Assembly: GCA_043820875.1 (NCBI GenBank)
Contig: JBDRDI010000039.1
Coordinates: 1 to 58,043, forward strand
DNA: 58,043 nucleotides
Source of the DNA: a bacterium
Lineage (GTDB): Bacteria > Patescibacteriota > Patescibacteriia > Patescibacteriales > UBA12075
Direction of reading: 5' to 3'
A program made the position numbers and the translations under genes. Of the stretch, positions 4,139 through 49,900 are shown piece by piece (position 1 is the first letter of the stretch; every line of letters begins with the position of its first letter). Below the pieces are notes generated by a model that made no database searches, was not told the origin of the DNA, and saw only the letters and a program-made list of their open reading frames with translations.

Positions 4139-6421
4139 TTATAAATTATTTTTTAAATAATTAATATCTTGTTTAATTATATCACCTCCATACTTTATTA
4201 TCCAATCTTGCTTTTCGTAAATATTTATTAACTTTATCATAACCTCGTATTTTGTTTTAATTATTTTTTTCAGAATCTCCGCATTAGGATTGTCTTGATG
4301 CTTTTCAATATATTCCTTTACCCATTCCAAATCTTTTATTAACGTATTTTTAATCCGTTCCCGTTTTATAATATTTTCGCCGTAACATCTTTTCACGTCA
4401 TCAATCGCGCTGTCTATACTGGATATTATCATAAAATCAATTTCTTTTATTGTTTCATTGCCGGCCATGTCTACCGCGGTAATTTTTAAAACATGCGCGC
4501 CGAGCCTTTGATAAAACAAATCAACCGTGGTTGTTGATAAAATATTTCCGTCCAAATATATATAAATATTTTCTATTCCGGAAAAATCATCGGTTGCCGA
4601 ATAATCAATCGTCAAATTTTCACTATGTAAATACTTTTCCCCTTCAATCGGATTGTTTATCGCTATAACCGGCGGAATTTCGTCTTCCGGCTCCAAATCG
4701 CCAATCGGATTTTCTTCGTTTTCATTATTATAATTAAAATCAAAAGCATGATTTTCATTCAAGTTGATATTACCGGTAAAATCTTTGGTGATTTCTTTTT
4801 CTTCACTGATATAATCTACTTCCACTGCATATTCGCCGTTATCAGTTCCTTGTAATTCTATTTTATATTCGCCCTGTTCCGGATTTATAATCACGGCGAA
4901 TTCCGGTTCATTAATAAAGCCCGTATAAAAAGAGTGTTCTATTTCATTGATATTCACATTATTTGTAAAATCTTTACCCAATTTTTGGCCGCTCGGAGAA
5001 GTAATCACAAAATCAGCCGGAGAATGAATGCTAATTACTAATATTTCTTCCGGCTCCGGCGTGTTGTTAATTTCATAAATTGGCATTGTACCGGTTAAAT
5101 ATGATATCACTTGTTTTTGAGCTTCTGTCGGAAAACTATCATGAGAAGCATCATTAATTACAGATACAGGGAATGGCAATGAACTAATATTTGGCACCGT
5201 TCCATCGCCAGCTAAATTTATTGTCTCTTCTCTATATCCATGTTCCCACATCGGACTATAATCCTCACCAGAACTTACTTTAATCACATTTATGGTATTG
5301 TCGCCAGTATAACCAGTAATGTTTAATGCGCTTATACCACTGTTTAAAAATTGATTTATTTTTTCTTCCGAATTCAAGTATTCCAAAAAATCATTATATG
5401 GATAATTGTCAGGATAATTAATTTTATCGTACGGCCTTAATGATATGCTGTCCATATCTTGCAGATAAATGTAATCTGGCAATAGTTCTTCCACTGATTT
5501 TACTCTGTCTTGAATATAACTAAATAAACTATCATAACCAAACAAGTGAGCTTCAGAAATAAAATATATTTTTGCTATTTTTTCTTGATAACTTTCAAAT
5601 CCTGTCGCTCCTTCCCATCTTAAATAACTCTTCGGCACTCCTTTGTGCGGAGTCCCTAAAAATACAATCTTATCAACATCGTGGTCATAGTAATCGCTGA
5701 CAACATAATACCGTGTCACAAGTCCGCCCATGCTATGAGCCACAATATCAACTTTATCACTGCCGGAAATTGTTTTTACTTCATCTATTTTTTGTTTTAA
5801 AAATTGCGCGGTTACAACATTGGAATTGCGCCATTGGTATGGAAAAGCGAATAAAGTTTTATTCTCTTCATAGCCGGCTTGGAGAAAAGCGTCCCATAAA
5901 TTATCATAGGTGTCAAGAATTGGATCCAACTTCCACTCGCCATCAGAATACCAACTCCCCATAATCCCTGGCACAATAATGATCGGATTGGACGCAACAG
6001 CGGGGATATTAAAAGTCTTATTGTAAAAAACTGTCCCAGCTGGCCAACCTTCGCAACCATCTTCTTGACCATCGTCCAATTTAACGCTCTCATCTCCATA
6101 ATGAAGCCAGAGCGGTCCAATACCGCGACATCCGCCCTTTGAGTCAATAGCAGATACCATTAACACGTCTCCGACGCTAGCTTGAAAATTAACCGGCTGA
6201 TTATTGCAACTAGCCCAGTGCGGATCTATATCGCTATAAATCAAATTTCCGTTCAAATAAACATAAATATCATCGTCAACGCAAAAATTGTCCGTAAGCT
6301 GCGATCCACCGGAAAGTATAAAATTTCCGAAAGCAGCCCGCGCCACATTCACATCCGCGGCGGAAAAGAAAAACAGCGCGAAAAAAACCACAACGCAAAA
6401 TACAAATATTTTTTTCAACAT
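4139..6421 (-). CDS. Secreted alpha/beta hydrolase (PGAP1/LCAT-like lipase/acyltransferase) with flanking beta and Ig-like domains
   Basis: Signal peptide; IIIVPGIMGS; FPYQWR; nucleophile elbow VAHSMGG; FLGTPHKG; GDGTVP; candidate His in HDSFP; C-terminal Ig-like PPVIAINNP...AVDMAGN. Confidence 0.82.
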   Translation of the reverse strand: MLKKIFVFCVVVFFALFFFSAADVNVARAAFGNFILSGGSQLTDNFCVDDDIYVYLNGNLIYSDIDPHWASCNNQPVNFQASVGDVLMVSAIDSKGGCRGIGPLWLHYGDESVKLDDGQEDGCEGWPAGTVFYNKTFNIPAVASNPIIIVPGIMGSWYSDGEWKLDPILDTYDNLWDAFLQAGYEENKTLFAFPYQWRNSNVVTAQFLKQKIDEVKTISGSDKVDIVAHSMGGLVTRYYVVSDYYDHDVDKIVFLGTPHKGVPKSYLRWEGATGFESYQEKIAKIYFISEAHLFGYDSLFSYIQDRVKSVEELLPDYIYLQDMDSISLRPYDKINYPDNYPYNDFLEYLNSEEKINQFLNSGISALNITGYTGDNTINVIKVSSGEDYSPMWEHGYREETINLAGDGTVPNISSLPFPVSVINDASHDSFPTEAQKQVISYLTGTMPIYEINNTPEPEEILVISIHSPADFVITSPSGQKLGKDFTNNVNINEIEHSFYTGFINEPEFAVIINPEQGEYKIELQGTDNGEYAVEVDYISEEKEITKDFTGNINLNENHAFDFNYNNENEENPIGDLEPEDEIPPVIAINNPIEGEKYLHSENLTIDYSATDDFSGIENIYIYLDGNILSTTTVDLFYQRLGAHVLKITAVDMAGNETIKEIDFMIISSIDSAIDDVKRCYGENIIKRERIKNTLIKDLEWVKEYIEKHQDNPNAEILKKIIKTKYEVMIKLINIYEKQDWIIKYGGDIIKQDINYLKNNL

Positions 6422-6483: not shown

Positions 6484-9400
6484 TTACTTCGCAGCCACAC
6501 TCACTTCACCGGTCGGAGCGCTTTCAATATTCGCTTGATTAAACGACTTGATTCTAAAATAATAAGTGATACCTGAATTTAAATTCGCGACTGAATAAGT
6601 TTCAACGCGATGGTCAATGGTCTCTCGTGTCCATTCTTGTGAAGACGCGGTTCGGCTTTCAATAATAACTCCTGCCACGCCTTCGGCAGGCAATGTCCAA
6701 TTTAAATCAATTGTCCCATCCTCTGTTCCCGCTTTGGCGCTAGGATTGGACGGCGTCGCAAAAGGAGCCAAGTTCACGAGTTCCGCTTTTTCGGAAAAAT
6801 TTCCGGAAGTATCATAAGCCGCGATAGCCACTTTATAAATTACGCCATTCTTAACATCACTGATTATCGCGCCCCATTCCAAACCGATATCGGACTTGTT
6901 GGCATAATCTGTGGCGCTCTTTTCTGCCCAAAACACTCTGAATCCGGCCAAATCATTATTTGCCGCAAGTGTGGCATCTTTTGTTTCAGACCAGTCCAAA
7001 TCAATATTTTTATCTCCCGGAACGGCCTTAAACAAATTGCCGTTTACTATGACTGGAGAGGCGGTGTCTTGAATTTTTACCGAAATCTCTGAAGAAAGTT
7101 CACTTTCCGCGCCGGTAATACTGTTTTTTGCCGAAATAACGAAATAGTATGTCGCGCCTTTTTCCAAGGAAAAAATATAATAAGGACTGAACTCGCTGTG
7201 ATTTTTCGTTTCGCTGACAGATATATTATCAGAATAAGAGCCGGATGCTTTTCCGTAATAAATAACATAACTGTCTGCGTCAGGAACCGAATCCCACCAA
7301 AAAGCCGCGTTATCTCCTTCCTCTGTTTGGCTGTCGCTAACGTTATAAAGAATCAGATCTCCAATCACGGGAACTGATTCGCGGAAATAATAAGCTTCTT
7401 TAAACACACCATCACAAATTCCTTTCTTTTGACAATCCGCATCATACGCGCAAGTTCCGCCATCGATTAAGTCTGTTTGACAATGGCCACTTACACAGCT
7501 GATATTAGTTGTCGGCACATTGGGTACGGCGCAACTTGATTCATCCGCGCATAATTCATTGTTATAAAATCCGCCACGACACCTCCACTCTGATTTTCCT
7601 TTTATTAAAGTGCTTCCGCTCAATATTGCCGGTAAATCATCGTATGTCCCGGTTACGCCGGCATCACGGCAATAATATATTTCATAATTCGTATTACCAC
7701 AACTGGCGGAAGGAGGATTGCAATTTCCGGACGCGTCTTTCCACGGCGACCAAAAACCGTCGGAGTCTATTGGCGGCCACGGATTATCACAAATAAAAAC
7801 ATAAACATCTGCTTGTCCGGTGAACGAGGCGCTTGACGTGACAACGTTTGCTGTTGCTGAAACGCTTGTTCTCCAATCTGTTATTCCGTCCACGGCTTGT
7901 ATCAAAACGCGATTGGACCCGACAAGAACGGCAGGACTAATGTCTTTAACAATATCTTCATTACCTATGGACCAGTCCCATATCCAACTGTAAACGCCCG
8001 GAAGAGAAACCAATTTTTGACCGTTGGCGCTTAAGGATTGGGCGATAAAAAGTTTATCTCTATCGCGCGCCGTATCAAAAGTTGAATCGTTTGGATTGGT
8101 ATCAATTTCATCCAGATCGTTGGTCGTTGTTTGGAATAAATATGAAGAAGGGTTCACTTCCACACGGCTGATTTCGCAAACACCATTGTTTCTGGCCTGC
8201 TCCGGCATGGTAGTGAACATGGAGATATGGGCTCGGCTGAATTGCGCCCCGCTCATTGTTTCCGTATCATTGCCGTTCATCCCTATGCCCCAATAATTTT
8301 TTACGCCCTCGGAACTGTCTAAATTTTTGTCTCCCTTTACTATCACATAATATCTTCTGTCTCCGTCCAGTACTTTGTTCGGTTTGAACTCTAATATGCC
8401 ATGCTCGGCCGCGTTGTTATATCCGCCGGTTGCTCCGGTTATGGCGCAAAAATTATGTGTCGGATCCGGCGTCTCATAAGCAACAGCGGATTCTATCGGG
8501 AAAATTGAATAAATTGATTTTGCCAATCTACTGAATATGTTTGCTATAATAAATTTATTTTTATTTTTATTCAAATCATTTAAAGAAATATATGTTGTAT
8601 CATCCGGGCATAAATCCGCTCCATAATCTCCAACGATAATAATATTTCCGGAAAAACTGGACACATCCATTTTTTGGTCAAACTCAACGGAGATAATTGC
8701 GTTGCGACAAATATTTACGGCATTATCAGTCGGCGCAGTTTCAGTCGGAGCGACACTAACCACGTTGGGTCTGGCGCGACAGCAAGTATCACGTCCGCAA
8801 CCGGCCAATTCCGCCTCTCCAGACGGTGCGCATTGACTATCATCACTGCAACCGCAACACAACCCCCTTTGTCCGCCCGCGCACGGCTCAGCTTCGCGGC
8901 AATCCAAGATTGAGTTAATATTAGTGCAAGAATCAGGTGAGGCTGAAGTGTCACAGCAACAAGAACAAGTCGTATCATTCGGAACACAATTTCCGCCCGC
9001 ACAACCGCTTTCTCCGATACAACTATAAGGGTTTGAACAAAGCAAACCACAATTTCCGGTTGATTCATCAAAGCACGATTGACCTCCGATCGAACCGCCA
9101 TTACCACATTTTGATGAACAGATATCCAGTGACTTGTATGTCCCGGAAATATCCGGACTATTTTCGCAAGTTATCGGATCAGTTTGTGTACAATCATAAT
9201 ATGGACAATAGGCAAGTCCGTTGCCTCCCGGAATTGACGATTCATCTTCATCTACTCCGCGACAAGCGGAATTTTTCATATTGTCTACGCAACAATATTG
9301 ACTATGAGTTGAACACTCATTACTTGTAGAAAGAGCTCCGCAGTCGCGACAAACTCCTTGCGGATAATCCGCGCTACTTGTATCACAATATTTTCCGGAA

Positions 9401-12400
9401 GCTCCGGAACAATTACAAGCAGCATCTTGTTCGGCTGCGGTGGAACCAGCGTCGGCGCAACCAGTACAATATCCAAAAGACGCACCATCGGAAGAAGTGC
9501 CACTGCCACATTCACCGGAACATTCAAGAAGCGGGCAACAATCTCTCGCGCTTTGGCCGACTTCACAACAGCATTCGCAAGAAGCGCCTTTTGTTTTTTG
9601 GCATTCGCCATTACTTTGACAAATTGAATTATCCGGACAAATATCACTGCTAAATACACAATCCCAATCGCCGTCATTGTCATAGTCTTGACAGGTAGAA
9701 CCTGTCGCGCATGCAGAACAAACCGCACCGACTTTTTGGCATCTACTCTTGCCACCACTATCTTTTATCCAGTCCGTGGGACAGGACGCGTAAGTGTCAA
9801 AATATAATTTTCCGGCTTCACAATAAGCTATTACCGGATCATTAAAAACATCTTGCGCGGCTTCGCGACAAGTTGAATCTGCGACCACACATCTATCAAT
9901 TGTATCGCGATAAACGCATCCTTGTGTAGAACAAAAAGAACAAGAATAATCACAAGTGACAAGAGTCTCGTAGACGCCTCCTTGGCTGGCTGAACAGCGC
10001 CCCGGAGAATTCGGACAATAGACAGAGTCAAAACATTGTGTGGAACCAAGACCTGAACAAGATTCGGTATTCGCCGGAACACATACACATGAATCATTAC
10101 ATTCATAATCAGCAGGACAGACACTATTGTCTTGGACGCAAAAATTTTGACTGCTGGAGCAAGATTCCGGAAGATCAACTCCAAGACCGGTGGAAAATCC
10201 CCACTCAAAAACCGAACTTTTAATATCCGGATAACAACCGACGCTGATATCGTCAACGCAATAACCTGCGTTATAAGTACCGACGGGGCAACAGCTTTGA
10301 ACTCCGCAAGCATCATCTGGGCTGGAAGCTTCCAGACAAGAACCGATTGAAAAATTCAAACCGTTACTTTCTGAGGCAGGGCTTCCTTTGGAAACTTTTA
10401 CCGGACCGGTGATTGCGGTCGCTGGAACCGTGGTGCGCGCTTCATCTGCTCCGGATTCAGCATCTTCCTCCCAGTTTAAAATCGCGCTTCCTGATTGTCT
10501 TTCATTTCTATAAAACAATATCGCGCTATCGTTTGTGGCCGCGTCAAAATATTCGCCGATAAAATTTATTTCACTGTCAGGCACGCCCATAACCGGACTG
10601 ATTTTACATAATCCGGGCGCAAGAAGCGCGGAACTATCATATAAAAAGAGAGGCGAAATTCCGCCGGTTCGTACAATATTTTTGGTATCCGCTTCTTTTC
10701 CATTTGCATCCACTTTTATATAAAAATTACTATCTGTAAAATCTGACAAATCAGGAGCCTTAACTATAATTTGATTATTGGTCCATAAAGATGCGGAACA
10801 AGCAGCTGGAAATTCGTAATCTGCTTCTTTTTCATTCCCTTCCGCATTAAAGAAAAACACTCTATATGTTTCCCCAATTTGAGAAGGAGAAGCATTGCCA
10901 AAATTACCGCCGGATATCGTCACATATTGACCGTCTCTCCCTTGTACAGGACTGAAAGAGATTATATACGGCCCGGAATAAGCGCTTTTTATTACCTCAA
11001 AATTAAAATAATTACTAAATGCTCCATTACCATTTAAAATAAAAGTTGTGGCTCGGCCGGAATTCAAATTCGGAACTACCGCGTTTATTCTTTCAGGTGA
11101 AACGAACACGGAATTAAACGCCGGAACAAAAGATGATGTATTTCCGAAGTTGGCTTGCGCGCTATTATTAAAACGCAAACCATGATATGTTATCGCGGTA
11201 TCGGCTGATCCGGATAATGGGTCCAAAGCGCAAATTCCCGGTCGGGCTATTTGATTTATTATAAAATTAAATATCGATCCGCGATTATCCATATTGGAAT
11301 CGGAACGTCCATCGACAGAAACTATTATTTTTGCCGAATTCACAAGATCAGGATTGACATTGGCAGGCACCACGACCAAAATCTGATTATCAGACCAATT
11401 GTTTTGGCAATTTGAATTTGTGGCTTGCGGATTCAATGCCAACTCACCGTTTATTGTTACGGTTCCGGCGGAATTTCCAAAAAATCTGCCATTGATTGTG
11501 ATCATACCTCCTGGAGAAGAATTCGCGGTTTCCAAATCACAGTTATTACTTTGGCAATCACCATCCTCTGCGCAAAAAGAATTTGTTGGATTACCGGCGC
11601 CGTCGCGACAGAATCCTCCTGCCGGCGATACGGAATCAATGCGTGGCGCGTTTTGACAAAGACAACAATTGTTTACTCCTGTCGCGTAATTCGCGGCCTG
11701 GCAATCGGCTGTTGAAGCAGAACATTCGCACAAGTCAGAGGCACAACGATTATTATTTAAATTACAATCAATTTGATTACTTGCGCAATCATCGTTCAAA
11801 CTGTTCCCGCAGGCCGCGCCGGAGCAAGAAGCGCAATCTTGCCCACCGCAATCTATACCGGTTTCGTTTTCATCCAATATGTTATTGCAACAATGCGCCG
11901 CTCTTAAAACAAAATTTTTCTCCGCTGACGCGGTATTGCTGTCCAAATCGGAAGCGGTGGCATTAATCGCGTAAGATCGACCAGCGGAATAGGCTGGCTC
12001 TTCCGGCTGCCAAATAATTGTTCCCAATCCTTCCGTCCACCAATTGATTCCTTGTCCGCAAGGAGAAGAATCACAACCAATAATAAATGGCGGGGTATCT
12101 TGAAATGGTGAAGGAATTTGCAATGCTCCGCCATTCTCTTCTTCTTTAAATTCAACTTGGGAAACTCCGCTGTCGTCATTGGCGCTAAACCCAAGCTGGT
12201 TCGGCGCACCAAGACAAAGTTGACTATCAGACAATATGGCCACTGACGGTTTGGCGCAATCAATTTGATCGCTGGTGTTAAACGTTAAATCACAAGAATT
12301 ATTTTCGTTAAGTCCGCAGGAAAGTGTTGTCCCGCCGACATCCAATATTCCTCCTTGGCCGTTTAACGCGTTAACATTTATGGTTTGGCCGGGTTCAAAA

Positions 12401-13062
12401 CAACGAGTTGCTCCACAATCATTTTGAGGACAATCGCCACTGGGAATAAATTCAATATATCGTCCGGCAATATTATATGTTCCGTTCACATTACCGTTTT
12501 CGTCACTTAAAACAAATGAAGAAGCGGAAACCGTGTCAGCATCAACATCACGAGAAAAATAATATCTAACCACTGTGTTTATGGGGTAAATGCCGTTACC
12601 CGGGCTTTTTGAAAGAACGGAAAATGATTCACCGGATTGCGTTATTTCTCCGCCATCGCCGGGATCTGTCCCGTCGGAAGAAGTTCCCCCCAAGGAGCTT
12701 TGCATTTGATTCAATACCCACGAGACTATCAAAAACGCGCTCATAATAATAACTAAACCGATGACTGCATTGATTAAAGTTTTTTTGGCCGTTTCCATTT
12801 TTTGCGAGTCGCCGGCGCTGGTCATCCAAAGAAAGCCTCCATATAATATAATAATCGTCGCTATAATTCCTAAAAATGTCAAAGCGATGCGCACAATATT
12901 AACGGCCACGACTCGCGGATCAGAATCCCCGCCTCCCAAGCCAACATTATTGGCGTAATTCAATCCGAAATCGCTTGATTGCGCAAAAGCAAAATTTACA
13001 GCCCCAAAAACAGCAACTGCGATTATAGCAAAAATAAAAATTTTACTTGCTTTTTTAAACAT
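6484..13062 (-). CDS. Giant (2192 aa) Cys-rich surface protein: signal peptide, TrbC/VirB2-like pilin domain, Ig-like and IPT/TIG domains, disulfide-rich repeats, C-terminal FN3 repeats
   Basis: Two-TM pilin-like block LGIIATIIILYGGFLWMTSAGD...AKKTLINAVIGLVII; Big_5-like PINTVVRYYFSRDVD and RNAIISVEFDQKMD; IPT-like PRIDSVSP, ITINGRFFG, VTISGGNFG; FN3-like WDSVPDADSYVIYYG, LDWS and YYFRIKSFN. Confidence 0.75.
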   Translation of the reverse strand: MFKKASKIFIFAIIAVAVFGAVNFAFAQSSDFGLNYANNVGLGGGDSDPRVVAVNIVRIALTFLGIIATIIILYGGFLWMTSAGDSQKMETAKKTLINAVIGLVIIMSAFLIVSWVLNQMQSSLGGTSSDGTDPGDGGEITQSGESFSVLSKSPGNGIYPINTVVRYYFSRDVDADTVSASSFVLSDENGNVNGTYNIAGRYIEFIPSGDCPQNDCGATRCFEPGQTINVNALNGQGGILDVGGTTLSCGLNENNSCDLTFNTSDQIDCAKPSVAILSDSQLCLGAPNQLGFSANDDSGVSQVEFKEEENGGALQIPSPFQDTPPFIIGCDSSPCGQGINWWTEGLGTIIWQPEEPAYSAGRSYAINATASDLDSNTASAEKNFVLRAAHCCNNILDENETGIDCGGQDCASCSGAACGNSLNDDCASNQIDCNLNNNRCASDLCECSASTADCQAANYATGVNNCCLCQNAPRIDSVSPAGGFCRDGAGNPTNSFCAEDGDCQSNNCDLETANSSPGGMITINGRFFGNSAGTVTINGELALNPQATNSNCQNNWSDNQILVVVPANVNPDLVNSAKIIVSVDGRSDSNMDNRGSIFNFIINQIARPGICALDPLSGSADTAITYHGLRFNNSAQANFGNTSSFVPAFNSVFVSPERINAVVPNLNSGRATTFILNGNGAFSNYFNFEVIKSAYSGPYIISFSPVQGRDGQYVTISGGNFGNASPSQIGETYRVFFFNAEGNEKEADYEFPAACSASLWTNNQIIVKAPDLSDFTDSNFYIKVDANGKEADTKNIVRTGGISPLFLYDSSALLAPGLCKISPVMGVPDSEINFIGEYFDAATNDSAILFYRNERQSGSAILNWEEDAESGADEARTTVPATAITGPVKVSKGSPASESNGLNFSIGSCLEASSPDDACGVQSCCPVGTYNAGYCVDDISVGCYPDIKSSVFEWGFSTGLGVDLPESCSSSQNFCVQDNSVCPADYECNDSCVCVPANTESCSGLGSTQCFDSVYCPNSPGRCSASQGGVYETLVTCDYSCSFCSTQGCVYRDTIDRCVVADSTCREAAQDVFNDPVIAYCEAGKLYFDTYASCPTDWIKDSGGKSRCQKVGAVCSACATGSTCQDYDNDGDWDCVFSSDICPDNSICQSNGECQKTKGASCECCCEVGQSARDCCPLLECSGECGSGTSSDGASFGYCTGCADAGSTAAEQDAACNCSGASGKYCDTSSADYPQGVCRDCGALSTSNECSTHSQYCCVDNMKNSACRGVDEDESSIPGGNGLAYCPYYDCTQTDPITCENSPDISGTYKSLDICSSKCGNGGSIGGQSCFDESTGNCGLLCSNPYSCIGESGCAGGNCVPNDTTCSCCCDTSASPDSCTNINSILDCREAEPCAGGQRGLCCGCSDDSQCAPSGEAELAGCGRDTCCRARPNVVSVAPTETAPTDNAVNICRNAIISVEFDQKMDVSSFSGNIIIVGDYGADLCPDDTTYISLNDLNKNKNKFIIANIFSRLAKSIYSIFPIESAVAYETPDPTHNFCAITGATGGYNNAAEHGILEFKPNKVLDGDRRYYVIVKGDKNLDSSEGVKNYWGIGMNGNDTETMSGAQFSRAHISMFTTMPEQARNNGVCEISRVEVNPSSYLFQTTTNDLDEIDTNPNDSTFDTARDRDKLFIAQSLSANGQKLVSLPGVYSWIWDWSIGNEDIVKDISPAVLVGSNRVLIQAVDGITDWRTSVSATANVVTSSASFTGQADVYVFICDNPWPPIDSDGFWSPWKDASGNCNPPSASCGNTNYEIYYCRDAGVTGTYDDLPAILSGSTLIKGKSEWRCRGGFYNNELCADESSCAVPNVPTTNISCVSGHCQTDLIDGGTCAYDADCQKKGICDGVFKEAYYFRESVPVIGDLILYNVSDSQTEEGDNAAFWWDSVPDADSYVIYYGKASGSYSDNISVSETKNHSEFSPYYIFSLEKGATYYFVISAKNSITGAESELSSEISVKIQDTASPVIVNGNLFKAVPGDKNIDLDWSETKDATLAANNDLAGFRVFWAEKSATDYANKSDIGLEWGAIISDVKNGVIYKVAIAAYDTSGNFSEKAELVNLAPFATPSNPSAKAGTEDGTIDLNWTLPAEGVAGVIIESRTASSQEWTRETIDHRVETYSVANLNSGITYYFRIKSFNQANIESAPTGEVSVAAK

Positions 13063-13121
13063 GACGCTGATTTATATCTTAAAATATTTATAAATAACTG
13101 AAGACCGAGGACTGGGGACTG

Positions 13122-15833
13122 TTATAAGCAGTTCCCTTCTGCGTCCAAATCCGCCGTACTGCTCCCGTCACAACAAGAAGGCGAAGCGGAATTGGCAGAG
13201 CAACCAGGGCCGGCACTTGGCTTGTAACAATTTTGATAAACATCACGCACGCCCGAACCGATTTGTGTTCTGACACCGGTATTGCCACCAAAATCCGTAT
13301 GTCTGATTTCCACAGCGGTTTTGTCCAGCTCACTGCTTGCTCCGGAATCACTGTTTATTCCCTCGCTTGCTATCCAATAACCAACTGCCAAATTATTTAA
13401 ATTCCAAAGATTTATATTTTTATGCCTGACTACTGTCCCATTGTTAACGCTTACTTCCCTAATGCCTGTTGCCAAGCTGGAATTCATCATTACTTTGTTG
13501 AATTGAATTTTTACCGGTTCAATTTGTGAGACTCCGTTTTGCCCATAATCCGGACTTATTGATTCAATTTGTGGAGACGATGCGTCCAATACGTTACTAA
13601 TAAAAAACGACCAGCTGTAATTATCGCCACTCCCCGTCCAGTTATTTTCATTATAATATTCAACCGGACCTTCGGCTTCTTCGCTTCTGTCGCCGTCAAG
13701 AGAGTTTCTGGCCGCATCCATAATACCGTCAAAATTCAATGACGACATCGGATAATTTTTTTGAAGAGAGTCACTGCGACAATGTCCGCTTTCACAAACG
13801 TTATATGGAGAGAAAGGCAGACAATCATTATTATCGGAACAAGCTATCAAGTTGGCCGCGTTTAATTCAACACGCAAATTGCTGTTTTCCGGCAAACAAT
13901 AAATTTCCTCGCCACAGCCGTTGACCCCGCAAATATTACTGGAAATAAATTCAACTGTTTTATATACATTTGATATAACAAATTTTCCGGATAAATAATC
14001 ATTCCTGCAAACTCCGGCCGAACAATCATATGAAAGACAATCGCTATTTGTTGAGCATGCCTCGCCGGCGTGAACAACGCCGGAATTATTATTAACCACT
14101 CTGATACGATCGCTTACTTCGTCCGCGCCACCTGACACGACAGAAGGCATAATCGCTTCATTAAAATTAATCTGGATTACGGAATTTTTTGGCTTATCGC
14201 TTTTGTCGCGCACGCTCACTGAAACGCCTTGGTCTTTACCATCGCTTAAATATCCGGTCAAAGGAACAATAAGACCGGAAGAATTTGATGACACTTTAAT
14301 ATGGTTGCCAACGGCTCCGGCAATCTTGGCGATTATGGTAATCATGTTTCCGGAATAGTTGGCCGATACACTTGGATTGGCCGGCGAATCAGATGTTCCG
14401 TTGATAACATTGGAAATATTTTGAGCAGTAATTGCCGTTGTTCCTCCCAAAGGAATTTGCCCAACAGCAAGATTTGTTGCTCCAGCCGGAACAAAAGAAT
14501 AAATAATTGAACCGACTGTCAAAATATCAGACTCGCGAAACGGAGTCACGGCAATGCTCCAACTTTGTCCGGCTGTATATTCTTGCGGCAAGCGCAATGT
14601 AAAAAAAGAAGAAAAAACAACCGTATTATTATTTCCAACAGTAGACGCGCCCAACGGACCGGAACTTCCGCTCAGTGAAATTGTCTTTGCGTCTTGCTCC
14701 ACAGCCAAGGTTAAATTACCGGATTGATTATGTCTTTCATTGATTGATATTATTTCCAAACCTGACACTGGAGCGTTTATACTGGCTGTCGCTTTGACCA
14801 AGGCAAGTGGCTGACTATTGACCGTAATGTTGCCCGAAGCCCTCGCGGAGGCGCTGGCCGTAAAAACATCTTGTTCATTATCCGGAGGTGGAAAAATTCC
14901 ACTTTGCAAAACTTGTGGTGGATCCAAATCAATTCTATTGCTTACTTCAAAACTCCAGAGAAGATAATCCAAACTGCAATGAGCGAATATTCCTTGTCCA
15001 CCGGAATTTTCAACCGCGTTGGATATATAAACCGAATACCAAATATATTCCGAAGGCGAACCCAAATAATTGGCCGGAATAAATACAAAAGTACGATTAT
15101 CATTACTTACTGCTATTAAATCGGCTACCAAACTGTTACAAACCGTGCCGTTAACACAACTATCTGTTTCGTTTCTATAAAATATTTTCACACTTGGATC
15201 GTCTCCGCCCGTGATTGCCCGGTCGCAATTCGCGCCAACGCAATCACAATATGTTCCATTATTATTGGTATCTTGGCAAACTGTTTGAGGATTAATGTCT
15301 TCTTTAAATGTCACTATGATTGAAGTATTTCTGGCCACTTCTTTTTGATTCACTTCCGGATAAACCGTTTCCACCGAGCAAGAGCCAATTGCTCCATATC
15401 CGGACACTGTCCCGGGCTGATTGATTCCACCTTGTTGCCGTTGTCCATCCGGACCCAAATTATTCAATACCCAACTGACAATCAAAAACGCGCACATAAT
15501 AATAATCATGCCAATAATTGCATTGATTAAAGTTTGTTTGGCTTTTCTTATTTTTTCTTCATCTCCTTGACTGGTCATCCAAAGCCAGCCGGCATACATA
15601 ATAATTACTACCGCAATAATTCCTAAAAACGTCAAAATAAGCTGCAAAATTCTCACGGCCACTACTCGCGGGTCAGAATCTCCTCCACCTAATCCCACAT
15701 TATTGGCATAATTCAATCCAAAATCAGTATTTTGCGCCATTGCAAAATGAGCCGTGGCAAAAAGAGACACGGCGACTATAAATAAAATTAAAATTTTTGT
15801 TTTTATGCTATTCTTTTTCACCATAAAAAACAC
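13122..15833 (-). CDS. 903-aa surface protein: signal peptide, TrbC/VirB2-like pilin domain, Ig-like (Big_5-type) domains and Cys-rich inserts
   Basis: Pilin block FLGIIAVVIIMYAGWLWMTSQGD.EKIRKAKQTLINAIIG; YPEVNQKEVARNTSIIVTFKEDI, NSVIQINFNEAI, SPDYGQNGVSQIEPVKIQFNKVM. The start may be a few codons downstream (MVKKN). Confidence 0.75.
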   Translation of the reverse strand: MFFMVKKNSIKTKILILFIVAVSLFATAHFAMAQNTDFGLNYANNVGLGGGDSDPRVVAVRILQLILTFLGIIAVVIIMYAGWLWMTSQGDEEKIRKAKQTLINAIIGMIIIMCAFLIVSWVLNNLGPDGQRQQGGINQPGTVSGYGAIGSCSVETVYPEVNQKEVARNTSIIVTFKEDINPQTVCQDTNNNGTYCDCVGANCDRAITGGDDPSVKIFYRNETDSCVNGTVCNSLVADLIAVSNDNRTFVFIPANYLGSPSEYIWYSVYISNAVENSGGQGIFAHCSLDYLLWSFEVSNRIDLDPPQVLQSGIFPPPDNEQDVFTASASARASGNITVNSQPLALVKATASINAPVSGLEIISINERHNQSGNLTLAVEQDAKTISLSGSSGPLGASTVGNNNTVVFSSFFTLRLPQEYTAGQSWSIAVTPFRESDILTVGSIIYSFVPAGATNLAVGQIPLGGTTAITAQNISNVINGTSDSPANPSVSANYSGNMITIIAKIAGAVGNHIKVSSNSSGLIVPLTGYLSDGKDQGVSVSVRDKSDKPKNSVIQINFNEAIMPSVVSGGADEVSDRIRVVNNNSGVVHAGEACSTNSDCLSYDCSAGVCRNDYLSGKFVISNVYKTVEFISSNICGVNGCGEEIYCLPENSNLRVELNAANLIACSDNNDCLPFSPYNVCESGHCRSDSLQKNYPMSSLNFDGIMDAARNSLDGDRSEEAEGPVEYYNENNWTGSGDNYSWSFFISNVLDASSPQIESISPDYGQNGVSQIEPVKIQFNKVMMNSSLATGIREVSVNNGTVVRHKNINLWNLNNLAVGYWIASEGINSDSGASSELDKTAVEIRHTDFGGNTGVRTQIGSGVRDVYQNCYKPSAGPGCSANSASPSCCDGSSTADLDAEGNCL

Positions 15834-35160: not shown

Positions 35161-38100
35161 TTAATTGCAATTTTTACAATAATTTATTACCGGATCGTAC
35201 ACTGTAATTTTACCGTCAGAATCGGGATTTACGATCATCACTGTCCACTGCCAAGAATCTGAACAAATTTTAGAAGAAACTGAAAATTCTCCGGTTTGCA
35301 TTCCCGGTATGGCTTGAGCTGTAAAATAATCTGTGACAAAAGATTCTACAAGACCGACGCCAATATTAATCTCTCCGCTTGGAACATCCAAAACATTTCC
35401 AGTTATGGCTCCCAAAACATCCTCAATCTGTGAAGCAGTGCTGACCCATGCATATTCTTCATTATCACAATTATTACCACCAGCGCTGGACCAATCGCAC
35501 ATTGCGATTTTTAAAGCGCTATTGTTTACGGCGGCTCCGTAAGCGATTGTATATATATCAATACCGCTTGCTTTTATTTCATCTACCGTATTTACCGGAT
35601 CTTCAGCCGGTAATGGGTTGGGCTCACCATCCGTAAGCATAACAATAGCCCTGTTCGACATACTAATGGTCTCATCTCTACCAAAAAATGCTTGCGCGTA
35701 TTGGAAAGCGGAGTTTGTCGGTGTGGCGCCACTGGCTGTATAGGTATCAATTTCAGTCAATAAACCTTCCAAGGAAGAAGCATTTAACGGAGCGCCAGAA
35801 TAATACCATCCAACCGAACTGCCGAAATCCACCAATCCAATATAAACAGTATCCAAATTCCATTGTCTGGTTTGCACATATAAACCGGTAATAATTTCCT
35901 TTAAAGCATCTTTAACACTTTGTAAAGATCCGGACATACTTCCGGAAACATCAGTAACAAAAATAATACCGGTCGTCTCTTGCGCCGGAATCACTTCAAA
36001 CTGGAACGAGCCTTTATATGGCAAATAACCTTCAATCGCTTCCGGACCGGAATCAAGCACTTTCCGGCAAGGCGGAAAATTCATTACCGTCATCATGCTA
36101 AAGCCTGCTGAAGCCGGATCATAATAAAAAGTATGAGATGATGATTTGTTATTTTGAAAATCAGCTGGGTTATTACTGTCCAATAACACTGAATTATCAG
36201 AAAAAGCCAAGGGTCTGCTTTCGTATCCATCACCATTTATTCCGGGGCAAGACCGGCGGCAATCATTGCCACAACAATCACTGTTATTCATGTTCCCGTC
36301 GTCGCATTCTTCGCCATAATTCGTTTGGGTTACACCGTCGCCGCACCAACCACTTACAGAGTGACATTGGCTGTCGCACTGATATTGATCAACAATACTT
36401 GCGCCATCTCCATCGGATTCGCATTGTTCGCCATAATTCGTTTGAATTGAAGAATCTCCGCACCAACCACCTTCCCATAAACAATTGCGACATTTATATT
36501 GGTCATATTCACTTGTTCCTCCGCCTTTGCCGTCTTTGGTGCCAAAAATATCGCACTTTTCATTAAAATTCCAAACGTTGCCGCCCGCGTCAGCATTATT
36601 TTCATCCTGCACCATACCGTCTCCACAATATCCACCACGCCAAGAGCAGGTGCCAAGACAGTTGCCGGAACCTACCGGACACTCTGGAATTAAAGTCGGG
36701 ATGCTTAAGTTACTGCACCAATATTGTCTGGTTGGTCCGGAATCGGCCGGAGAAACAGCCACGCCATCTGCGCCGTCGCATTGTTCTTGACCATTGCCGC
36801 TTGGTCCGCCTCTTCCTTCTGAGTTCGGATTTTGCACTTTATTGTCTCCGCAATAACTATCAACTTTCAAATTCCAATTTACTTGACCGCGCGCGCCCAA
36901 ATTATCTTCAACCGTAATGGCAATATTGTATTGGCCCGCTTTTGTCGGCGCGCCGTGTATTGTTCCCGGAATTTTTACCAAAGGATTATTGGAAATGGCG
37001 ATACCGTCCGGAAAAACATTGGCAAAAGCGAAAGTTGATTGGTTGATTGATTGGCCGGAATCAGGATCCCAGGCGCTGACTTTGCATTCCGAGCTCAAAT
37101 TCTGTCCGGCGCGAACAACACTTGGACAGCCACTGACATTCAATGCCGGTGGATTGTTAAATACTCTAAAATTAATTTGTTTTGAAGAAACCGCGCCCAA
37201 TGCGTCTTTAACATAAAGAGTGGAAACATAATCTTTGTATGTGGCTATTTTTTCAATCGGCGTGCCAACCAGTCTTACAATCAATTCATTGCCGACAATC
37301 TCGGATGTAAAAGAAATACCGTTATTTAATATTGGGCTATGTTCCCAGTTGATGTCGTTCGTAATTACCGCCCTACCTCCACTTCTGGCTCTGGCTACCT
37401 CAATTCCCGGGTCGGCTATGGCGGAACCAACCAAGAGCGGATTTATTTTTTTGACTTCAATAATCGGCGCTGTATTGGAGAACGTGATGGAAAATGTTTT
37501 GTGCGAAACAGCATTATTTTGATCATGAAAAGCAATATCAAAAGTATAAGAAAAATTATCTTGAATAATAAATAATGCGGGATTCCACTCAAATTGGTAA
37601 AAACATCTATTATTATTTTGGTCACAATCAGACGAAACAAAACCAAGCCCAGTATTTACTAAACTCGTATATACATATCCATTATTACAATTTGGATGTT
37701 CACCGGAAAGACAACGAAAACTGTCAAAATTTGCGATTGGATCCGTAAAATTCAAATCGGAATCTTCCACCACCACTTGATACGAAGCTGTTTGAGACGG
37801 GTCAGCCGTAAAAAATTGATCATTAATCATTATTTTCGGTCCGGCATTGGAAATTGTAATTGAAAAAGAAAGGTTTAAAATTTCACCGCGGCCGTCATTA
37901 ATCTGAACCGTAAATTCATAAACACCGACATTCCCGGCTTTGGACGCATGTATTTCTTTTTGGTTTATGTTATTGGTATCGCGGAAAACAACGTCTTGCC
38001 AAGAACCCCAATCACCAATCGGAGCAAAGTTAGACCAAATTAATTTGTCTCCGTCAGGGTCAATCGCTTCAATAAATCCTGAGTATTCTTTTCCTGGCGA

Positions 38101-46960: not shown

Positions 46961-49900
46961 TTACTTCGCGCATCTAAACCCTACCGTGCTCGTCGCTTCT
47001 GTTGGGCTATAACTCAGATTCAAATCGTATAATCCGATTTCACCGCGGACAAATCCTCTTAAGTTATTGCTATTATCCCCGTTCGACAAGCTCAGGGCAG
47101 GCGACTTAATCTTACCAATACCGTTGGCTGAATTGTAATAATATGGAGGCGCGATGTTTAAGCCTTTGTAATCCGTGATGTTGGAATATTCTTGCCAGTC
47201 GTTATCCATTGGCGCGACAATTCCGGACTTGGTAATTGTTTGGTCTGTCCACTCGCCCACTCCGCCGATGATATTATAAATCATATTACCGTTGGAAAGG
47301 GTGGAATAAATATTGGCTGTAATATATGAGTAAATATTTACGTCTGTCGCATCATAAACCGCCGCGGCTTGCCAAAGCTGTAATCCATCTTTTGCCACAT
47401 CAGCATCATTTTCCGCGGTTCTAATAATATTTTCCGCGATGGTGAGCCATTCATTCTCGCTCAAAAGGTGGTATCCTTCACCCACGCCAAGACAAGCCAG
47501 AGCGGCTTCTCCTTGCGACACGTTAACCCATGATATACTAGTCGTTGCTCCATCTCCAGCTCGCGCCTCGTCCGATTGCGCGCAGAATCCCGGCATGGTT
47601 CCGTATTTCGCGGAACCCGGCACCCATACATATCCATCATCGCATACAGATTCAAACGCGCCGGCAACGATTGTTCCTTCAACTCCCATATCACCCATTG
47701 TTTCATCCACCGCGTTATCCAATTCGCTACCACAAACTCCGCCCGAACAAACCATGATCCTGCCGTCAACGAGCATCTCTCCCACAACGGTCACTTGACC
47801 GGTTTGAGCGATATTAACGATTGAAATTCCTCCGGCTTGAAAATCAGCCACTGAAGCGTCTCCGCCTTGATTCACAACCAAAGCGGTTTTGTTTGTGCTT
47901 GTGGCAGTGATAATTTCCACAATAGCAACGTCTTCTTCAATCTCCACGGACGAACTGGCTGTATCCTCAATGTTCGTAATCTTTATATTTCCTTCCGCTG
48001 TTTCTTTAATTACTTCCGGCAGAGATGAACTGGCCAAATCAATTGAAGGGATAAATCCTGCTTGCCACGCCTCTAATATTCCCATTCTTGCATTCAAGTT
48101 ATTTGTACTATTTTCTAAAACGCCAACTCTGCTGATCAAGTCATCAGCGCTTGCGGATATTTGTACAAGTTGTCCATTCACAGCGTCAAATCTCACAGAC
48201 AAATCTTGATCAAACAAAGCAATCTGTTCTTCAGCAATATCTTTTATGTCTTGATCCAGATTCAAATTATTAACCGCGTTGGAAATAAGGATCTGCACTT
48301 CGTCTTCAATCTCCATGCTGGCGATGCGCTCTGTGATCTGAGCTTCCACAGCTTCCACAGTCAGACTCTTGTTTCTTCTGGATATCAGAACTTTTATCTC
48401 GCCAATTCCGCCTGAAAAAGATTCCAAAGCAACGCCCACGGTCGGATCTCCGACACCGGCTTTCATCACATATCCCGGAGTGCTGGACGCGCTGGTCAAC
48501 GAATCACCCGGCCTAATCTCGCCATTTTCAGACGACACCTTGGCAGGAACCTGACCAAGCATTCCAACAATTACATACTTATCATTGTCAACATATTCTT
48601 CTTTTCTATTACCAATAATCGCCGGCTTGGTAGAAACAATGCCCATCACATTTGAATCCGCTCCCCGATCGCATCTCTTCACCATATTGTTTTCCGTAAT
48701 ATCCACACAAACCACCTCTCCTGATTTCAAATCCGCTTCTCTTGCGCGAAAATATTCCGCGTAATCAGCGCCGGCGTTGTTAAACGCCACATCGGAAATC
48801 GCTTCGCCATTGCCCATCACTTTGAATCCGATACCTGTACTGGTGGAAACCGCGAATAAAGTATCAGTATTATCGCCGTCTGATTGATAAATATTTAATT
48901 TAGCAATTGGCGTCGTCGTCCCAATCCCCACATACCCCGCGTTCATATCTCCATAAATCGTATCACCGATGTTTAAGAATTTGTATGAAGCAGAGGAGGT
49001 GGCGTCAACGCCGTAGCCAATAATAATATTGTTTGAGCCTGTAGTAATATTATCTCCTGCCTGATAGCCCAATAATAAATTATTAGCGCCGGTGGTGTTG
49101 GCAAGGCCTGATTGATAGCCTACAAAAGTATTATTATCTGAACCTGTTTCCACGGCATAACCGCTCTTGTATCCGACGTAGACGCCATTTTGATTGGAAT
49201 AAGTGGCTGAACCTTGTGCAGATAAAGTACCAATAGCGATAGTAGAAGTGGCGGAAGTGTTGAAATAAAGAGACTGGCGTCCCACAGCTGAATTCTGTGA
49301 GCCGGTGGTGTTATAACGGAGAGACCAAGGTCCCAAAGCTGTATTATTTGTGCCGGTGGTGTTGGAGTAGAGAGAATGATATCCCAAAGCTGTATTATTT
49401 GAGCCGGTAGTGTTGGAATAGAGAGCTTGATAACCAATGCCGGTATTCCAATCCGAAGAAGTAGCCACATATCCCGCCTGATAACCGATGAAAGTATTAT
49501 ACAACCCATCAGCCAAAACATCTTTGCCCGCACCTTCGCCCACAAATATTCCTTTATTCGTGCTGGAAGCATATAAAATAGTATTGCCGGCTTGTTTGTA
49601 TCCGGAATATTGATTAACATTCACAAACCCATCCACATCCAAAGCATATTGAGGCGTCGTCGTCCCAATCCCCACATTCCCCACCTCATTAACATACAAC
49701 ATAGACGCGCCGGTGGAAGAAGCGATGTTCAACGGAGAAACGCCAGCTGAAGCTTGGACGGAGAGTTTGGAGAGGGGGGAGGTGGTGCCGATGCCGACAT
49801 TGCTATCAAAAGAAGCCACTCCATCAGCGTGAAATGTTCCTTGAACATCTAATTTATAATCAGGTGTAGTATCACTCCCTATTCCAACATTTCCATTTGA

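What the first reader, a model, noticed from the sequence alone, without database searches (positions are those of the whole stretch)
12901..15725. 24-residue mature N-terminal tag identical in both pilin fusions despite 11 synonymous changes
Seen: DFGLNYANNVGLGGGDSDPRVVAV is encoded at 12901-12972 and 15654-15725. Codon comparison by hand gives 11 synonymous and 0 non-synonymous differences, while the signal peptides before it and the cargo after the TMs are unrelated. This excludes a very recent duplication and implies strong purifying selection. Inference: a recognition, processing or polymerisation signal.
Basis: partly seen in the sequence, partly recalled or inferred. Interest (0 to 1): 0.68.

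Follow-up and report, generated by a model that had tools for sequence, protein, structure and literature searches.

The report
Co-evolving head of Patescibacteria pilin fusions
Two giant surface proteins of an ultra-small Patescibacteria bacterium begin with the same 24 residues because that stretch is the exposed outer tip of a shared VirB2-like pilin anchor; the tip differs between species but stays matched among the pilin-type proteins of one cell, as expected if they must fit each other or one common partner.

Summary
On the minus strand, ORF A (6484-13062, 2192 aa) and ORF B (13122-15824, 900 aa) both encode DFGLNYANNVGLGGGDSDPRVVAV, with 11 synonymous and 0 non-synonymous differences.

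It is not a free-standing tag. It is the extracytoplasmic N-terminal head of a T4SS_pilin (PF18895, VirB2-like) two-helix domain. That domain is 67% identical between A and B.

- A standalone 125-aa pilin elsewhere in the genome carries a 17/24-identical version.
- The motif D-x-G-L-x-Y-A...G-L...D-P-R occurs in 83 of the 150 best-scoring representative clusters.
- The B-then-A fusion pair is syntenic in at least 31 of 40 related genomes.

Between genomes the head is the most variable part of the domain. Within a genome it is matched across paralog classes, together with the outer ends of both helices. The inner loop region instead tracks paralog class.

Synonymous sites are near saturation in most matched pairs, so selection for matching is acting, not only gene conversion.

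Best reading: a compatibility surface that lets adhesin-bearing fusions co-assemble with, or be handled like, the standalone pilins of the Patescibacteria type IV secretion system. This mechanism is inferred, not shown.

The parts
13122..15824 (-). ORF B: 900-aa pilin-domain fusion protein (903 aa if the upstream GTG at 15833 is used).
   Evidence: ORF list. Pfam T4SS_pilin 40.6 bits against a 26.6-bit cut-off, plus Big_5. Full-length orthologues at 37-47% identity in Falkowbacteria, Parcubacteria and Patescibacteria MAGs.
15735..15824 (-). ORF B signal peptide, residues 1-30. Predicted signal peptidase I cleavage after A-M-A, leaving an N-terminal Gln.
   Evidence: Read from the sequence: K-rich n-region, hydrophobic core, A-x-A. 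A30 and Q31 are conserved in the family. The cleavage site is inferred by the -3/-1 rule, not tested.
15654..15725 (-). ORF B head segment (the 'tag'), residues 34-57: DFGLNYANNVGLGGGDSDPRVVAV.
   Evidence: AlphaFold2 gives pLDDT about 40-55 for D34-D54; helix 1 starts at P55-R56.
15462..15653 (-). ORF B helix 1, Lys-rich loop and helix 2 (residues 58-121), the core of the VirB2-like pilin hairpin.
   Evidence: Pfam PF18895 match at residues 62-122. AlphaFold2 helical hairpin with pLDDT above 90.
13125..15461 (-). ORF B flexible Gly-rich linker (about residues 122-142), then a beta-rich cargo of Ig-like domains.
   Evidence: AlphaFold2: linker pLDDT below 50, cargo pLDDT 80-94 and mostly strands. 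Best Foldseek hit is the S-layer protein SbsC (E 2.7e-6), followed by adhesin and cadherin rods. Big_5 in Pfam.
6484..13062 (-). ORF A: 2192-aa pilin-domain fusion protein, 59 bp downstream of ORF B on the same strand.
   Evidence: Pfam T4SS_pilin 40.4 bits, Big_5, TIG, fn3. Proteins of about 1800-2400 aa with the same N-terminus lie next to B-like genes in at least 31 relatives.
12982..13062 (-). ORF A signal peptide, residues 1-27. Predicted cleavage after A-F-A, leaving an N-terminal Gln.
   Evidence: Sequence. Cleavage site inferred, not tested.
12901..12972 (-). ORF A head segment (the 'tag'), residues 31-54. Identical in protein to the ORF B copy, with 11 synonymous differences.
12709..12900 (-). 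ORF A helix 1, loop and helix 2 (residues 55-118). 67% identical to ORF B.

Best explanation
The 24 residues are the membrane-external N-terminal head of a VirB2-like (PF18895) pilin module.

Proposed sequence of events:
1. After Sec export and signal-peptidase cleavage, the head and the cargo both lie outside the membrane. The two helices form a membrane hairpin with a Lys-rich loop inside.
2. By homology with VirB2 and TraA, the genome's type IV secretion machinery (PrgI/VirB3, TrsD-like, VirB4-like) extracts such hairpins and stacks them into a fibre or stalk. In that structure both termini point outward.
3. The head, together with the outer ends of the two helices, forms the surface through which co-resident pilin-domain proteins contact each other.
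4. The adhesin-bearing fusions A and B must therefore keep this surface matched to each other and to the standalone class-1 pilin, so they can be built into the same structure as cargo-carrying minor subunits.

This surface drifts between lineages but is held in step within a cell, by selection and occasionally by gene conversion.

Shown: homology, topology-compatible sequence features, presence of the machinery, purifying selection, and the genome-specific matching pattern. Inferred: polymerisation, co-assembly, and the head being a contact surface.
For: (1) Domain identity. PF18895 scores above its cut-off in both proteins. The AlphaFold2 hairpin has pLDDT above 90, with the helix starting at the P-R of D-P-R.

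(2) Same head on a cargo-less pilin. The first gene of an 8-gene pilin array on contig C43 carries EFGLNYASNLELGGENSDPRDVAV, 17/24 identical.

(3) Machinery is present. PrgI (3.5e-8), a TrsD-like protein and a VirB4-like ATPase (P-loop_TraG, 2e-28) lie on C22. A coupling protein lies on C28.

(4) Strong selection in this genome. The tag has dN 0 at pS 0.60, while the helices have pN 0.22.

(5) Matching within genomes.
- Cross-paralog identity of the head is 0.525 within genomes against 0.325 with genome labels shuffled (z=19, 0 of 500 shuffles). The helices give 0.582 against 0.499.
- Examples: one head, NMLWGG..GNVQ.ATGLGNTDPR, is shared by six genes in G009 and in G019; G027, G029, G034 and G040 show similar matching.

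(6) The genome-specific signal is bipartite in sequence but contiguous in the fold.
- Excess identity by region: head +0.19, outer helix 1 about +0.20, outer helix 2 about +0.13, inner ends and loop +0.04 to +0.08.
- Paralog-class signal peaks at positions 76-102.
- On trees, inner columns group by class (14 changes against 45 shuffled). The head groups by genome (52 against 90) and barely by class (38 against 45).

(7) Most matched pairs have near-saturated synonymous sites: G009 pS 0.78 with pN 0.06; G029 pS 0.78 with pN 0.14.

(8) In the solved T-pilus both VirB2 termini lie on the outside of the filament and the inter-helix loop faces the lumen (bioRxiv 10.1101/2022.09.25.509369). A C-terminal cargo and an N-terminal head would therefore both be exposed.

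(9) VirB2-like pilin arrays are known and essential in a cultivated Patescibacterium (PMC10633639, PMC12102498).
Against: - No pilus or stalk has been seen for any Patescibacteria type IV secretion system. Polymerisation is assumed by homology.
- The fusion genes are not next to the virB4 cluster or the pilin array. They lie on different contigs of a 60-contig assembly.
- The matching is not universal. In roughly a third of genomes the A-B head is less similar than the helices (G024 0.36 against 0.73; also G036, G016, G006).
- Gene conversion does occur. In G040 the N-terminal modules are almost identical, with no difference in the head and only a few in the helices; G027 has tag pS 0.30. Head identity correlates weakly and negatively with pS (rho -0.38, p=0.04). 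So part of the signal is concerted evolution.
- AlphaFold2 gives no structure for the head (pLDDT about 50), and no multimer model could be run.
- Foldseek could not confirm similarity to solved conjugative pilins (best E 0.7).
- A cargo of 800-2000 residues on every subunit would be sterically impossible. The model therefore needs sparse or terminal incorporation, which is untested.
Confidence: 0.5

Rival explanations
1. The head is a recognition handle, not a subunit-subunit contact. One lineage-specific partner binds the outer end of every class-1 pilin module. That partner could be an outer part of the type IV secretion machine (a VirB6- or VirB8-like protein), a chaperone, or a maturation enzyme acting on the new Gln N-terminus. 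All its clients therefore track that partner.
For: This explains the same genome-specific matching of the head and outer helix ends and the strong purifying selection. The head is disordered on its own, as is typical of segments that fold on binding. The conserved anchors G36, G44-L45 and D51-P52-R53 sit amid variable positions, which would suit a peptide-in-groove contact.
Against: No candidate partner was identified or shown to co-vary. The outer ends of both helices also co-vary, which fits lateral packing of hairpins at least as well. In characterised VirB2 and TraA systems, known maturation acts on the termini (acetylation, cyclisation) and does not need a 24-residue element (general knowledge, not tested here).
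Confidence: 0.22
2. The pilin module is only a membrane anchor for surface-layer or adhesin rods and never polymerises. The head and outer helix ends are matched within a genome because all anchors face the same lineage-specific envelope, such as the wall, S-layer base or scavenged lipid head groups.
For: - The ORF B cargo resembles the S-layer protein SbsC and adhesin rods.
- The fusions are encoded away from the secretion genes.
- 75 of the 83 motif-bearing representatives are 300 aa or longer, so anchoring cargo is the commonest use of this module.
- A lipase gene lies directly downstream.
Against: Adaptation to a general envelope would not be expected to hold 20-24 residues identical across paralogs (G000, G009, G019, G027). 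The same head sits on cargo-less pilins that lead the conserved pilin arrays. Pilin arrays of this kind lie within the secretion-system gene cluster and are essential in S. epibionticum (PMC10633639).
Confidence: 0.13
3. Concerted evolution alone. Repeated gene conversion between pilin-module genes homogenises them, and the identical 24 residues are simply a surviving patch with no special function.
For: G040 shows a very recent conversion of the whole N-terminal module, and G027 has low pS in the head. There is a weak negative correlation between head identity and pS. In the window's own pair the helices retain more shared codons than saturation predicts (10 against 24.2 expected), so some shared history is not ancient.
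Against: - In this window the head has more synonymous divergence than the flanking helices (11/24 against 10/43 identical-residue codons) yet no amino-acid change. About 12 non-synonymous changes would be expected at the core rate.
- The head is the fastest-evolving part between lineages, so neutral decay after conversion should make it the least similar part within genomes. That is the opposite of what is seen.
- The genome-specific signal skips the class-specific middle of the domain, which a single conversion tract cannot do.
Confidence: 0.07
4. The head acts in cis. It docks onto the first cargo domain as a donor strand or cap, as the first reader suggested could be modelled.
For: The head and the cargo are on the same side of the membrane, and Ig-like domains can accept a complementing strand.
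Against: In the full-length ORF B model the head stays unstructured (pLDDT 39-50) and makes no confident contact. A flexible linker of about 20 residues separates hairpin and cargo. The same head occurs on pilins with no cargo, and the cargos of A and B are unrelated.
Confidence: 0.03

Closest known systems
VirB2/TrbC/TraA conjugative (type IV secretion) pilins, e.g. the Agrobacterium T-pilin
   Same: - Sec signal peptide, short external N-terminal segment, two long hydrophobic helices joined by a short basic loop.
- Pfam T4SS_pilin above its cut-off, and a weak TrbC match.
- In the T-pilus both termini are on the outside and the loop faces the lumen with phospholipid.
- From memory, not tested: the mature T-pilin also starts with Gln after an Ala-rich cleavage site and has a Gly-rich/Asp-Pro stretch before its first long helix.
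   Different: - Here the C-terminus carries 780 or 2070 residues of cargo, which rules out head-to-tail cyclisation.
- The organism is a monoderm.
- The TrbC model scores below its cut-off (17.6 and 21.6 against 27.9 bits).
- No sequence relative exists in the PDB, and the fold comparison was uninformative.
VirB2-like pilin arrays of Patescibacteria (Southlakia epibionticum SEML1 T4SS locus; survey of 3,035 genomes)
   Same: Same phylum, same Pfam family, and tandem arrays of 2-11 divergent pilins. This genome has an 8-gene array on C43. The secretion system is of the PrgI/TrsD/VirB4 type.
   Different: The papers read describe small standalone pilins and stress their low identity within arrays (mean 25%). 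They do not mention pilin-cargo fusions, the D-x-G-L-x-Y...G-L...D-P-R head, or its within-genome matching. Absence from the few papers searched is not proof of absence from the literature.
Two-domain tip adhesins and minor pilins of other pilus systems (FimH/PapG of chaperone-usher pili; large minor pilins of type IV pili)
   Same: The logic is the same: a pilin-type module that fits the fibre, joined to a large binding domain, and encoded beside or apart from the major subunit.
   Different: The fold and assembly chemistry are unrelated. There is no Ig-like pilin domain with a missing strand. There is no class III signal peptide or G|FxxxE motif. The cleavage site is of signal peptidase I type (A-x-A).
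NCBIfam NF045849, Mbov_0395 family pilin-like conjugal transfer protein (Mycoplasma ICE)
   Same: It is the best NCBIfam match and covers the two helices (residues 57-124). It is another monoderm lineage with a VirB2-like protein.
   Different: Scores are below the cut-off (27.4 and 32.4 against 40 bits). The match does not cover the head, and the family has no cargo.

Membership tests
Pfam PF18895 T4SS_pilin (VirB2-like pilin) | Match to the family model above the curated gathering score | tested here: met
   40.4 bits (ORF A) and 40.6 bits (ORF B) against a 26.6-bit cut-off. The whole-genome scan gives 49.3 and 47.0 bits. The match starts at profile position 11-12, so the first roughly 17 residues of the head lie outside the model.
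Pfam PF18895 T4SS_pilin (VirB2-like pilin) | Signal peptide followed by two long hydrophobic helices joined by a short basic loop | tested here: met
   Read from the sequence. AlphaFold2 helices at 22-54 and 59-93 of the mature domain, pLDDT above 90. The loop is TSQGDEEKIRKAKQ.
VirB2-type pilin of a type IV secretion system | The genome encodes the VirB4-family ATPase and VirB3/PrgI partner | tested here: met
   Contig C22 carries PrgI (3.5e-8), a 226-aa TrsD-like ORF (weak TraC_F_IV match only) and a 652-aa ATPase with P-loop_TraG (2e-28). A coupling protein lies on C28. PF03135, the diderm VirB4 N-terminal domain, is absent.
VirB2-type pilin of a type IV secretion system | Pilin gene encoded in or next to the secretion gene cluster | tested here: inconclusive
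   ORFs A and B have no secretion genes within the 58-kb window. The pilin array (C43, 8.3 kb) and the virB4 cluster (C22, 6 kb) are on separate short contigs, so linkage cannot be judged.
VirB2-type pilin of a type IV secretion system | Small protein (mature length about 70-100 aa) that polymerises with phospholipid into a tube | not testable with these tools
   The size criterion is met by the standalone C43 pilin (125 aa precursor) but not by A or B. Polymerisation needs microscopy or biochemistry.
VirB2-type pilin of a type IV secretion system | Fold similarity to solved conjugative pilins | tested here: inconclusive
   Foldseek against the PDB gives best E 0.74. An archaeal conjugative pilin (8dfu) appears only at rank 11 with E 3.6. 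A plain helical hairpin carries too little information. The profile search of PDB sequences found only spurious hits.
Pfam PF04956 TrbC/VirB2 | Match above the gathering score | tested here: not met
   17.6 and 21.6 bits against a 27.9-bit cut-off.
   The head is predicted as coil or a short helix with pLDDT 39-55. It does not dock on the Ig-like cargo in the full-length model. Only monomers were modelled.
Type IV (prepilin-peptidase dependent) pilins | Class III signal peptide with G|FxxxE and an N-terminal hydrophobic helix | tested here: not met
   The sequence shows a classical tripartite signal peptide ending A-x-A followed by Q. No G|F..E motif is present.

The most novel reading that the evidence does not exclude
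Patescibacteria use the VirB2-like pilin hairpin as a universal plug. Two conserved families of giant Ig-rod proteins (about 900 and about 2000 aa), and many others, would be inserted through this plug into the same type IV secretion fibre or stalk as the small pilins. The result would be an adhesin-decorated conduit to the host cell. The fast-evolving but internally matched outer head would be the species-specific compatibility code that decides which subunits can assemble together.
Probability: 0.3. Interest if true: 0.8.

Novelty: new variant of a known kind. Interest (0 to 1): 0.6.

Why it matters
The type IV secretion system and its pilin array are essential for the epibiotic life of the one genetically tractable Patescibacterium. 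Nobody yet knows whether a pilus is built or what it does (PMC10633639, PMC12857230).

Three results here turn that open question into defined experiments: which proteins co-assemble, through which surface, and with what on the outside.
- The same pilin module, with a matched outer head, sits on two widely conserved families of giant Ig-rod proteins.
- That outer end co-evolves among all class-1 pilin proteins of a cell.
- The inner end tracks paralog class.

It also gives annotators a simple motif for recognising pilin-anchored surface proteins in thousands of uncultivated genomes.

Tried and rejected
- Close relatives for a shallow dN/dS test: none exist. The 90%-identity clusters of A and B have one member each. 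Genome and metagenome scans reach at most about 50% full-length identity. The closest N-terminal domain in 40 relatives is 57% identical.
- Fold comparison of the pilin domain with solved pilins: uninformative. The profile search of PDB sequences gave only spurious repeat-protein hits.
- PF03135 (diderm VirB4 N-terminal domain): absent. The ATPase was found instead through AAA_10 and P-loop_TraG.
- A 776-aa DUF87 membrane ATPase on C27 was considered as VirB4 but has no specific match.
- Nucleotide-level explanations for the identity (RNA element, antisense ORF) are rejected. The two copies differ at 11 of 72 bases. Only a mechanical 65-aa plus-strand ORF overlaps copy A, and none overlaps copy B.
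- An RTX-like calcium motif in GLGGGDSD was considered by eye and does not fit the GGxGxD register.
- The promoter and terminator scan gave nothing decisive: no terminator between B and A, and a weak promoter-like site upstream of B.
- The literature search for pilin-adhesin fusions in this phylum found nothing beyond the two T4SS papers.
Full report
**The observation**

The two copies of DFGLNYANNVGLGGGDSDPRVVAV lie on the minus strand.
- Copy 12901-12972 is residues 31-54 of ORF A (6484-13062, 2192 aa).
- Copy 15654-15725 is residues 34-57 of ORF B (13122-15824 from the ATG, 900 aa).

I count 11 synonymous and 0 non-synonymous codon differences, as reported. By Nei-Gojobori the segment has pS 0.60 (dS about 1.2) and dN 0. 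The next 64 codons have pS 0.45 and pN 0.22.

A run of 24 identities occurs in 0.04% of shuffles of the 119 aligned positions, and in 0.7% for the 89 mature positions. Changed residues are 0/24 in the segment against 22/65 in the helices (Fisher p=0.0005).

If synonymous codons were fully randomised, 14.8 +- 2.2 of the 24 codons would differ; 11 do. In the identical residues of the helices only 10 of an expected 24.2 differ. So the segment is not a younger conversion patch than its neighbours. If anything it is older.

**What the segment belongs to**

Both proteins match Pfam T4SS_pilin (PF18895) above its cut-off (40.4 and 40.6 against 26.6 bits). They match TrbC/VirB2 below its cut-off. The best NCBIfam match is a Mycoplasma pilin-like conjugal protein, also below cut-off.

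The homology between A and B does not stop at the 24 residues.
- The signal peptides are diverged homologues (11/30 identical, both ending F-A-x-A followed by Q).
- The following helix-loop-helix is 67% identical, up to ...FLIVSWVLN.
- Only the cargos are unrelated by BLASTP (best E 0.32), although both contain Big_5-type Ig-like domains.

AlphaFold2 of the mature ORF B module (77-sequence alignment) gives a helical hairpin with pLDDT above 90. Its first helix begins at the P-R of D-P-R. The preceding 21 residues, which cover the first 18 of the 24 tag residues, are unstructured (pLDDT about 50).

The full mature ORF B model leaves the head unstructured too. It shows a flexible linker of about 20 residues, then a beta-rich rod. 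The rod's best structural match is the S-layer protein SbsC (E 2.7e-6), followed by adhesin and cadherin repeats.

The 'tag' is therefore the membrane-external N-terminal head of one pilin module. Cleavage after A-x-A, leaving an N-terminal Gln three residues before the head, is inferred from the sequence.

**The genome**

The window is contig C39 of a 0.92-Mb, 37% G+C, 60-contig genome. Relatives carry the names Falkowbacteria, Parcubacteria or Patescibacteria.

The genome has 15 PF18895 matches. Only one further protein carries the head. It is a standalone 125-aa pilin, the first gene of an 8-gene pilin array on C43, with EFGLNYASNLELGGENSDPRDVAV (17/24 identical).

A secretion core lies on C22: PrgI/VirB3, a TrsD-like ORF, and a VirB4-like ATPase (P-loop_TraG 2e-28). 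A coupling protein lies on C28. This is the Patescibacteria type IV secretion system described in PMC12102498. Its pilin array is essential in Southlakia epibionticum (PMC10633639). No secretion gene lies in the window itself.

**How widespread it is**

An exhaustive HMMER search with the ORF B module found 35,012 representative clusters at E<=1e-3.

Of the best 150, 83 carry the head motif, loosely D-x-G-[LIM]-x-Y-[AG]-x3-[GD]-L-x(2-7)-D-[PIV]-R. Of those 83, 75 are 300 aa or longer, with size peaks at 800-1050 aa and at 1700 aa or more.

Family-wide, only a few head positions are well conserved: G36, G44, L45, D51, P52 and R53 in ORF B numbering.

All 41 genomes searched (own, family and order) have the module. 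In at least 31 relatives a B-like gene (about 850-1000 aa in most; about 350-690 aa in some) is immediately followed by an A-like gene (about 1800-2400 aa in most). ORF B orthologues align over their full length at 37-47% identity. The pair is thus an old, conserved two-gene unit.

**The key result: how the head evolves**

I extracted 150 N-terminal modules from these genomes: 31 A-like, 32 B-like and 87 standalone.

Between genomes the head is the most variable part, at 0.30-0.37 identity against 0.47-0.60 for the helices.

But the head varies in concert within each genome.
- G009 and G019 carry NMLWGG..GNVQ.ATGLGNTDPR on both fusions and on four standalone pilins.
- G034, G040, G027, G029, L117, L109 and L128 show the same behaviour with other sequences.

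With one genome per genus (104 class-1 modules), cross-paralog identity of the head is 0.525 within genomes against 0.325 with genome labels shuffled (z 19). The helices give 0.582 against 0.499.

Column by column, the genome-specific excess is distributed as follows:
- Head: +0.19
- Outer third of helix 1: about +0.20
- Outer third of helix 2: about +0.13
- Inner ends and loop: +0.04 to +0.08

The signal that separates A, B and standalone classes peaks at positions 76-102, reaching +0.58.

Trees agree.
- Inner columns group by class (14 changes against 45 when shuffled).
- The head groups by genome (52 against 90) and hardly by class (38 against 45).
- The outer helix ends alone also follow genome (62 against 90).

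The genome-specific part is split in the sequence but contiguous at the outer end of the hairpin.

**Conversion or selection**

Gene conversion does happen. In G040 the N-terminal modules of the pair are almost identical: the head shows no difference and the helices only a few. G027 has pS 0.30 in the head. Head identity correlates weakly with low pS (rho -0.38, p 0.04).

Most matched pairs, however, have near-saturated synonymous sites with very low dN:
- G000: pS 0.60, dN 0
- G009: pS 0.78, pN 0.06
- G019: pS 0.67, pN 0.10
- G029: pS 0.78, pN 0.14

A region that evolves fastest between lineages should decay fastest after a neutral conversion. The class-specific middle of the domain also interrupts the genome-specific signal. 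So selection for sameness of the outer end is needed. Conversion is an occasional helper, not the explanation.

The matching is not universal. In about a third of genomes the A-B head is less alike than the helices.

**Mechanism**

In the solved T-pilus, VirB2 is a U-shaped hairpin. Both termini lie on the outside of the filament, and the loop faces the lumen with phospholipid (bioRxiv 10.1101/2022.09.25.509369). By homology, the head and the C-terminal cargo of A and B would both be exposed.

I therefore favour the following reading (confidence about 0.5). The head plus the outer helix ends form the contact surface by which co-resident pilin modules pack. The fusions keep this surface matched to the standalone class-1 pilin so that they can be built in as sparse or terminal cargo-bearing subunits.

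The rivals are:
- A common partner that recognises the outer end (0.22)
- A mere membrane anchor adapted to a lineage-specific envelope (0.13)
- Conversion alone (0.07)
- Cis-docking on the cargo (0.03; contradicted and by the cargo-less pilins)

Polymerisation, co-assembly and the contact role are inferences. No multimer model could be run here.

**Comparison and novelty**

The module is a member of PF18895 and works like a VirB2-type pilin. It fails the TrbC model cut-off. The fold comparison with solved pilins was uninformative.

The papers I could read describe small, divergent pilins in arrays and raise the possibility of a pilus in a monoderm. They do not mention pilin-cargo fusions, the head motif, or its within-genome matching. 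My literature search was limited.

I rate this a new variant of a known kind, with moderate to good interest. It is not a new kind of system, but it gives a concrete, testable handle on what the Patescibacteria secretion pilins assemble with.

Noticed in passing
own genome, contig C43:3127-6725 (minus strand), outside the window: There is an array of eight tandem PF18895 pilin genes. The first carries the class-1 head (FGLNYA...SDPR). The other seven have a different N-terminal region (often ...GL...AGY...). The same order, with one to four class-1 genes followed by four or five class-2 genes, recurs in relatives (G002, G003, G026, G030, G036).
   Followed up: partly
own genome, contig C22:73-3163 and contig C28:10374-12242: C22 carries a type IV secretion core: PrgI/VirB3-like (146 aa), TrsD-like (226 aa) and a VirB4-like ATPase (652 aa). 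C28 carries a separate coupling protein (TrwB/TraG-type) with a C-terminal treble-clef zinc finger.
   Followed up: partly
window 4139-6421 (minus strand): A 760-aa secreted lipase or acyltransferase-like protein (LCAT, Lipase_2, Big_7) lies directly downstream of ORF A. Conjugative pili contain stoichiometric phospholipid, and these bacteria cannot make lipids, so a link is conceivable. Its synteny in relatives was not checked.
   Followed up: no
G040:C23:6883-10195 (locus L071): In this relative the N-terminal modules of the B-like and A-like genes are almost identical: no difference at all in the 22 aligned codons of the head, and about 3 synonymous and 2 non-synonymous differences in the 64 helix codons. 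This is a clear recent gene conversion of the module, with unrelated cargos downstream.
   Followed up: partly
proteins P0002-P0020: Many top hits are single proteins with 4-17 tandem pilin-like hairpin units (for example 1775 aa with 17 matched stretches). These poly-pilin proteins are of unknown origin and were not examined.
   Followed up: no
window 46961-53509 and 35161-39090 (minus strand): The window holds two further giant surface proteins: a 2182-aa ORF with no Pfam match, and a 1309-aa ORF with He_PIG and a C-terminal vWA domain. Neither has the pilin module.
   Followed up: no
own genome C18:5361-7467: Two adjacent paralogs of 343 and 357 aa have the PF18895 hairpin in mid-protein, preceded by a shared motif (PQVTIDDTFK...). 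This is another kind of pilin-module fusion with a different N-terminal region.
   Followed up: no
record titles: Several clearly Patescibacteria contigs with full-length ORF B orthologues are titled 'uncultured Gammaproteobacteria bacterium' in their public records. These are probably placeholder or wrong labels.
   Followed up: no
window residues ...FLIVSWVLN in A and B; ...FMIVSWVFR in the C43 pilin: A Trp at the outer end of helix 2 is shared by all three class-1 modules of this genome. It is rare in the family, occurring in 10 of 136 sequences where the consensus is Phe. This is a local example of the genome-specific outer-end signature outside the 24 residues.
   Followed up: partly
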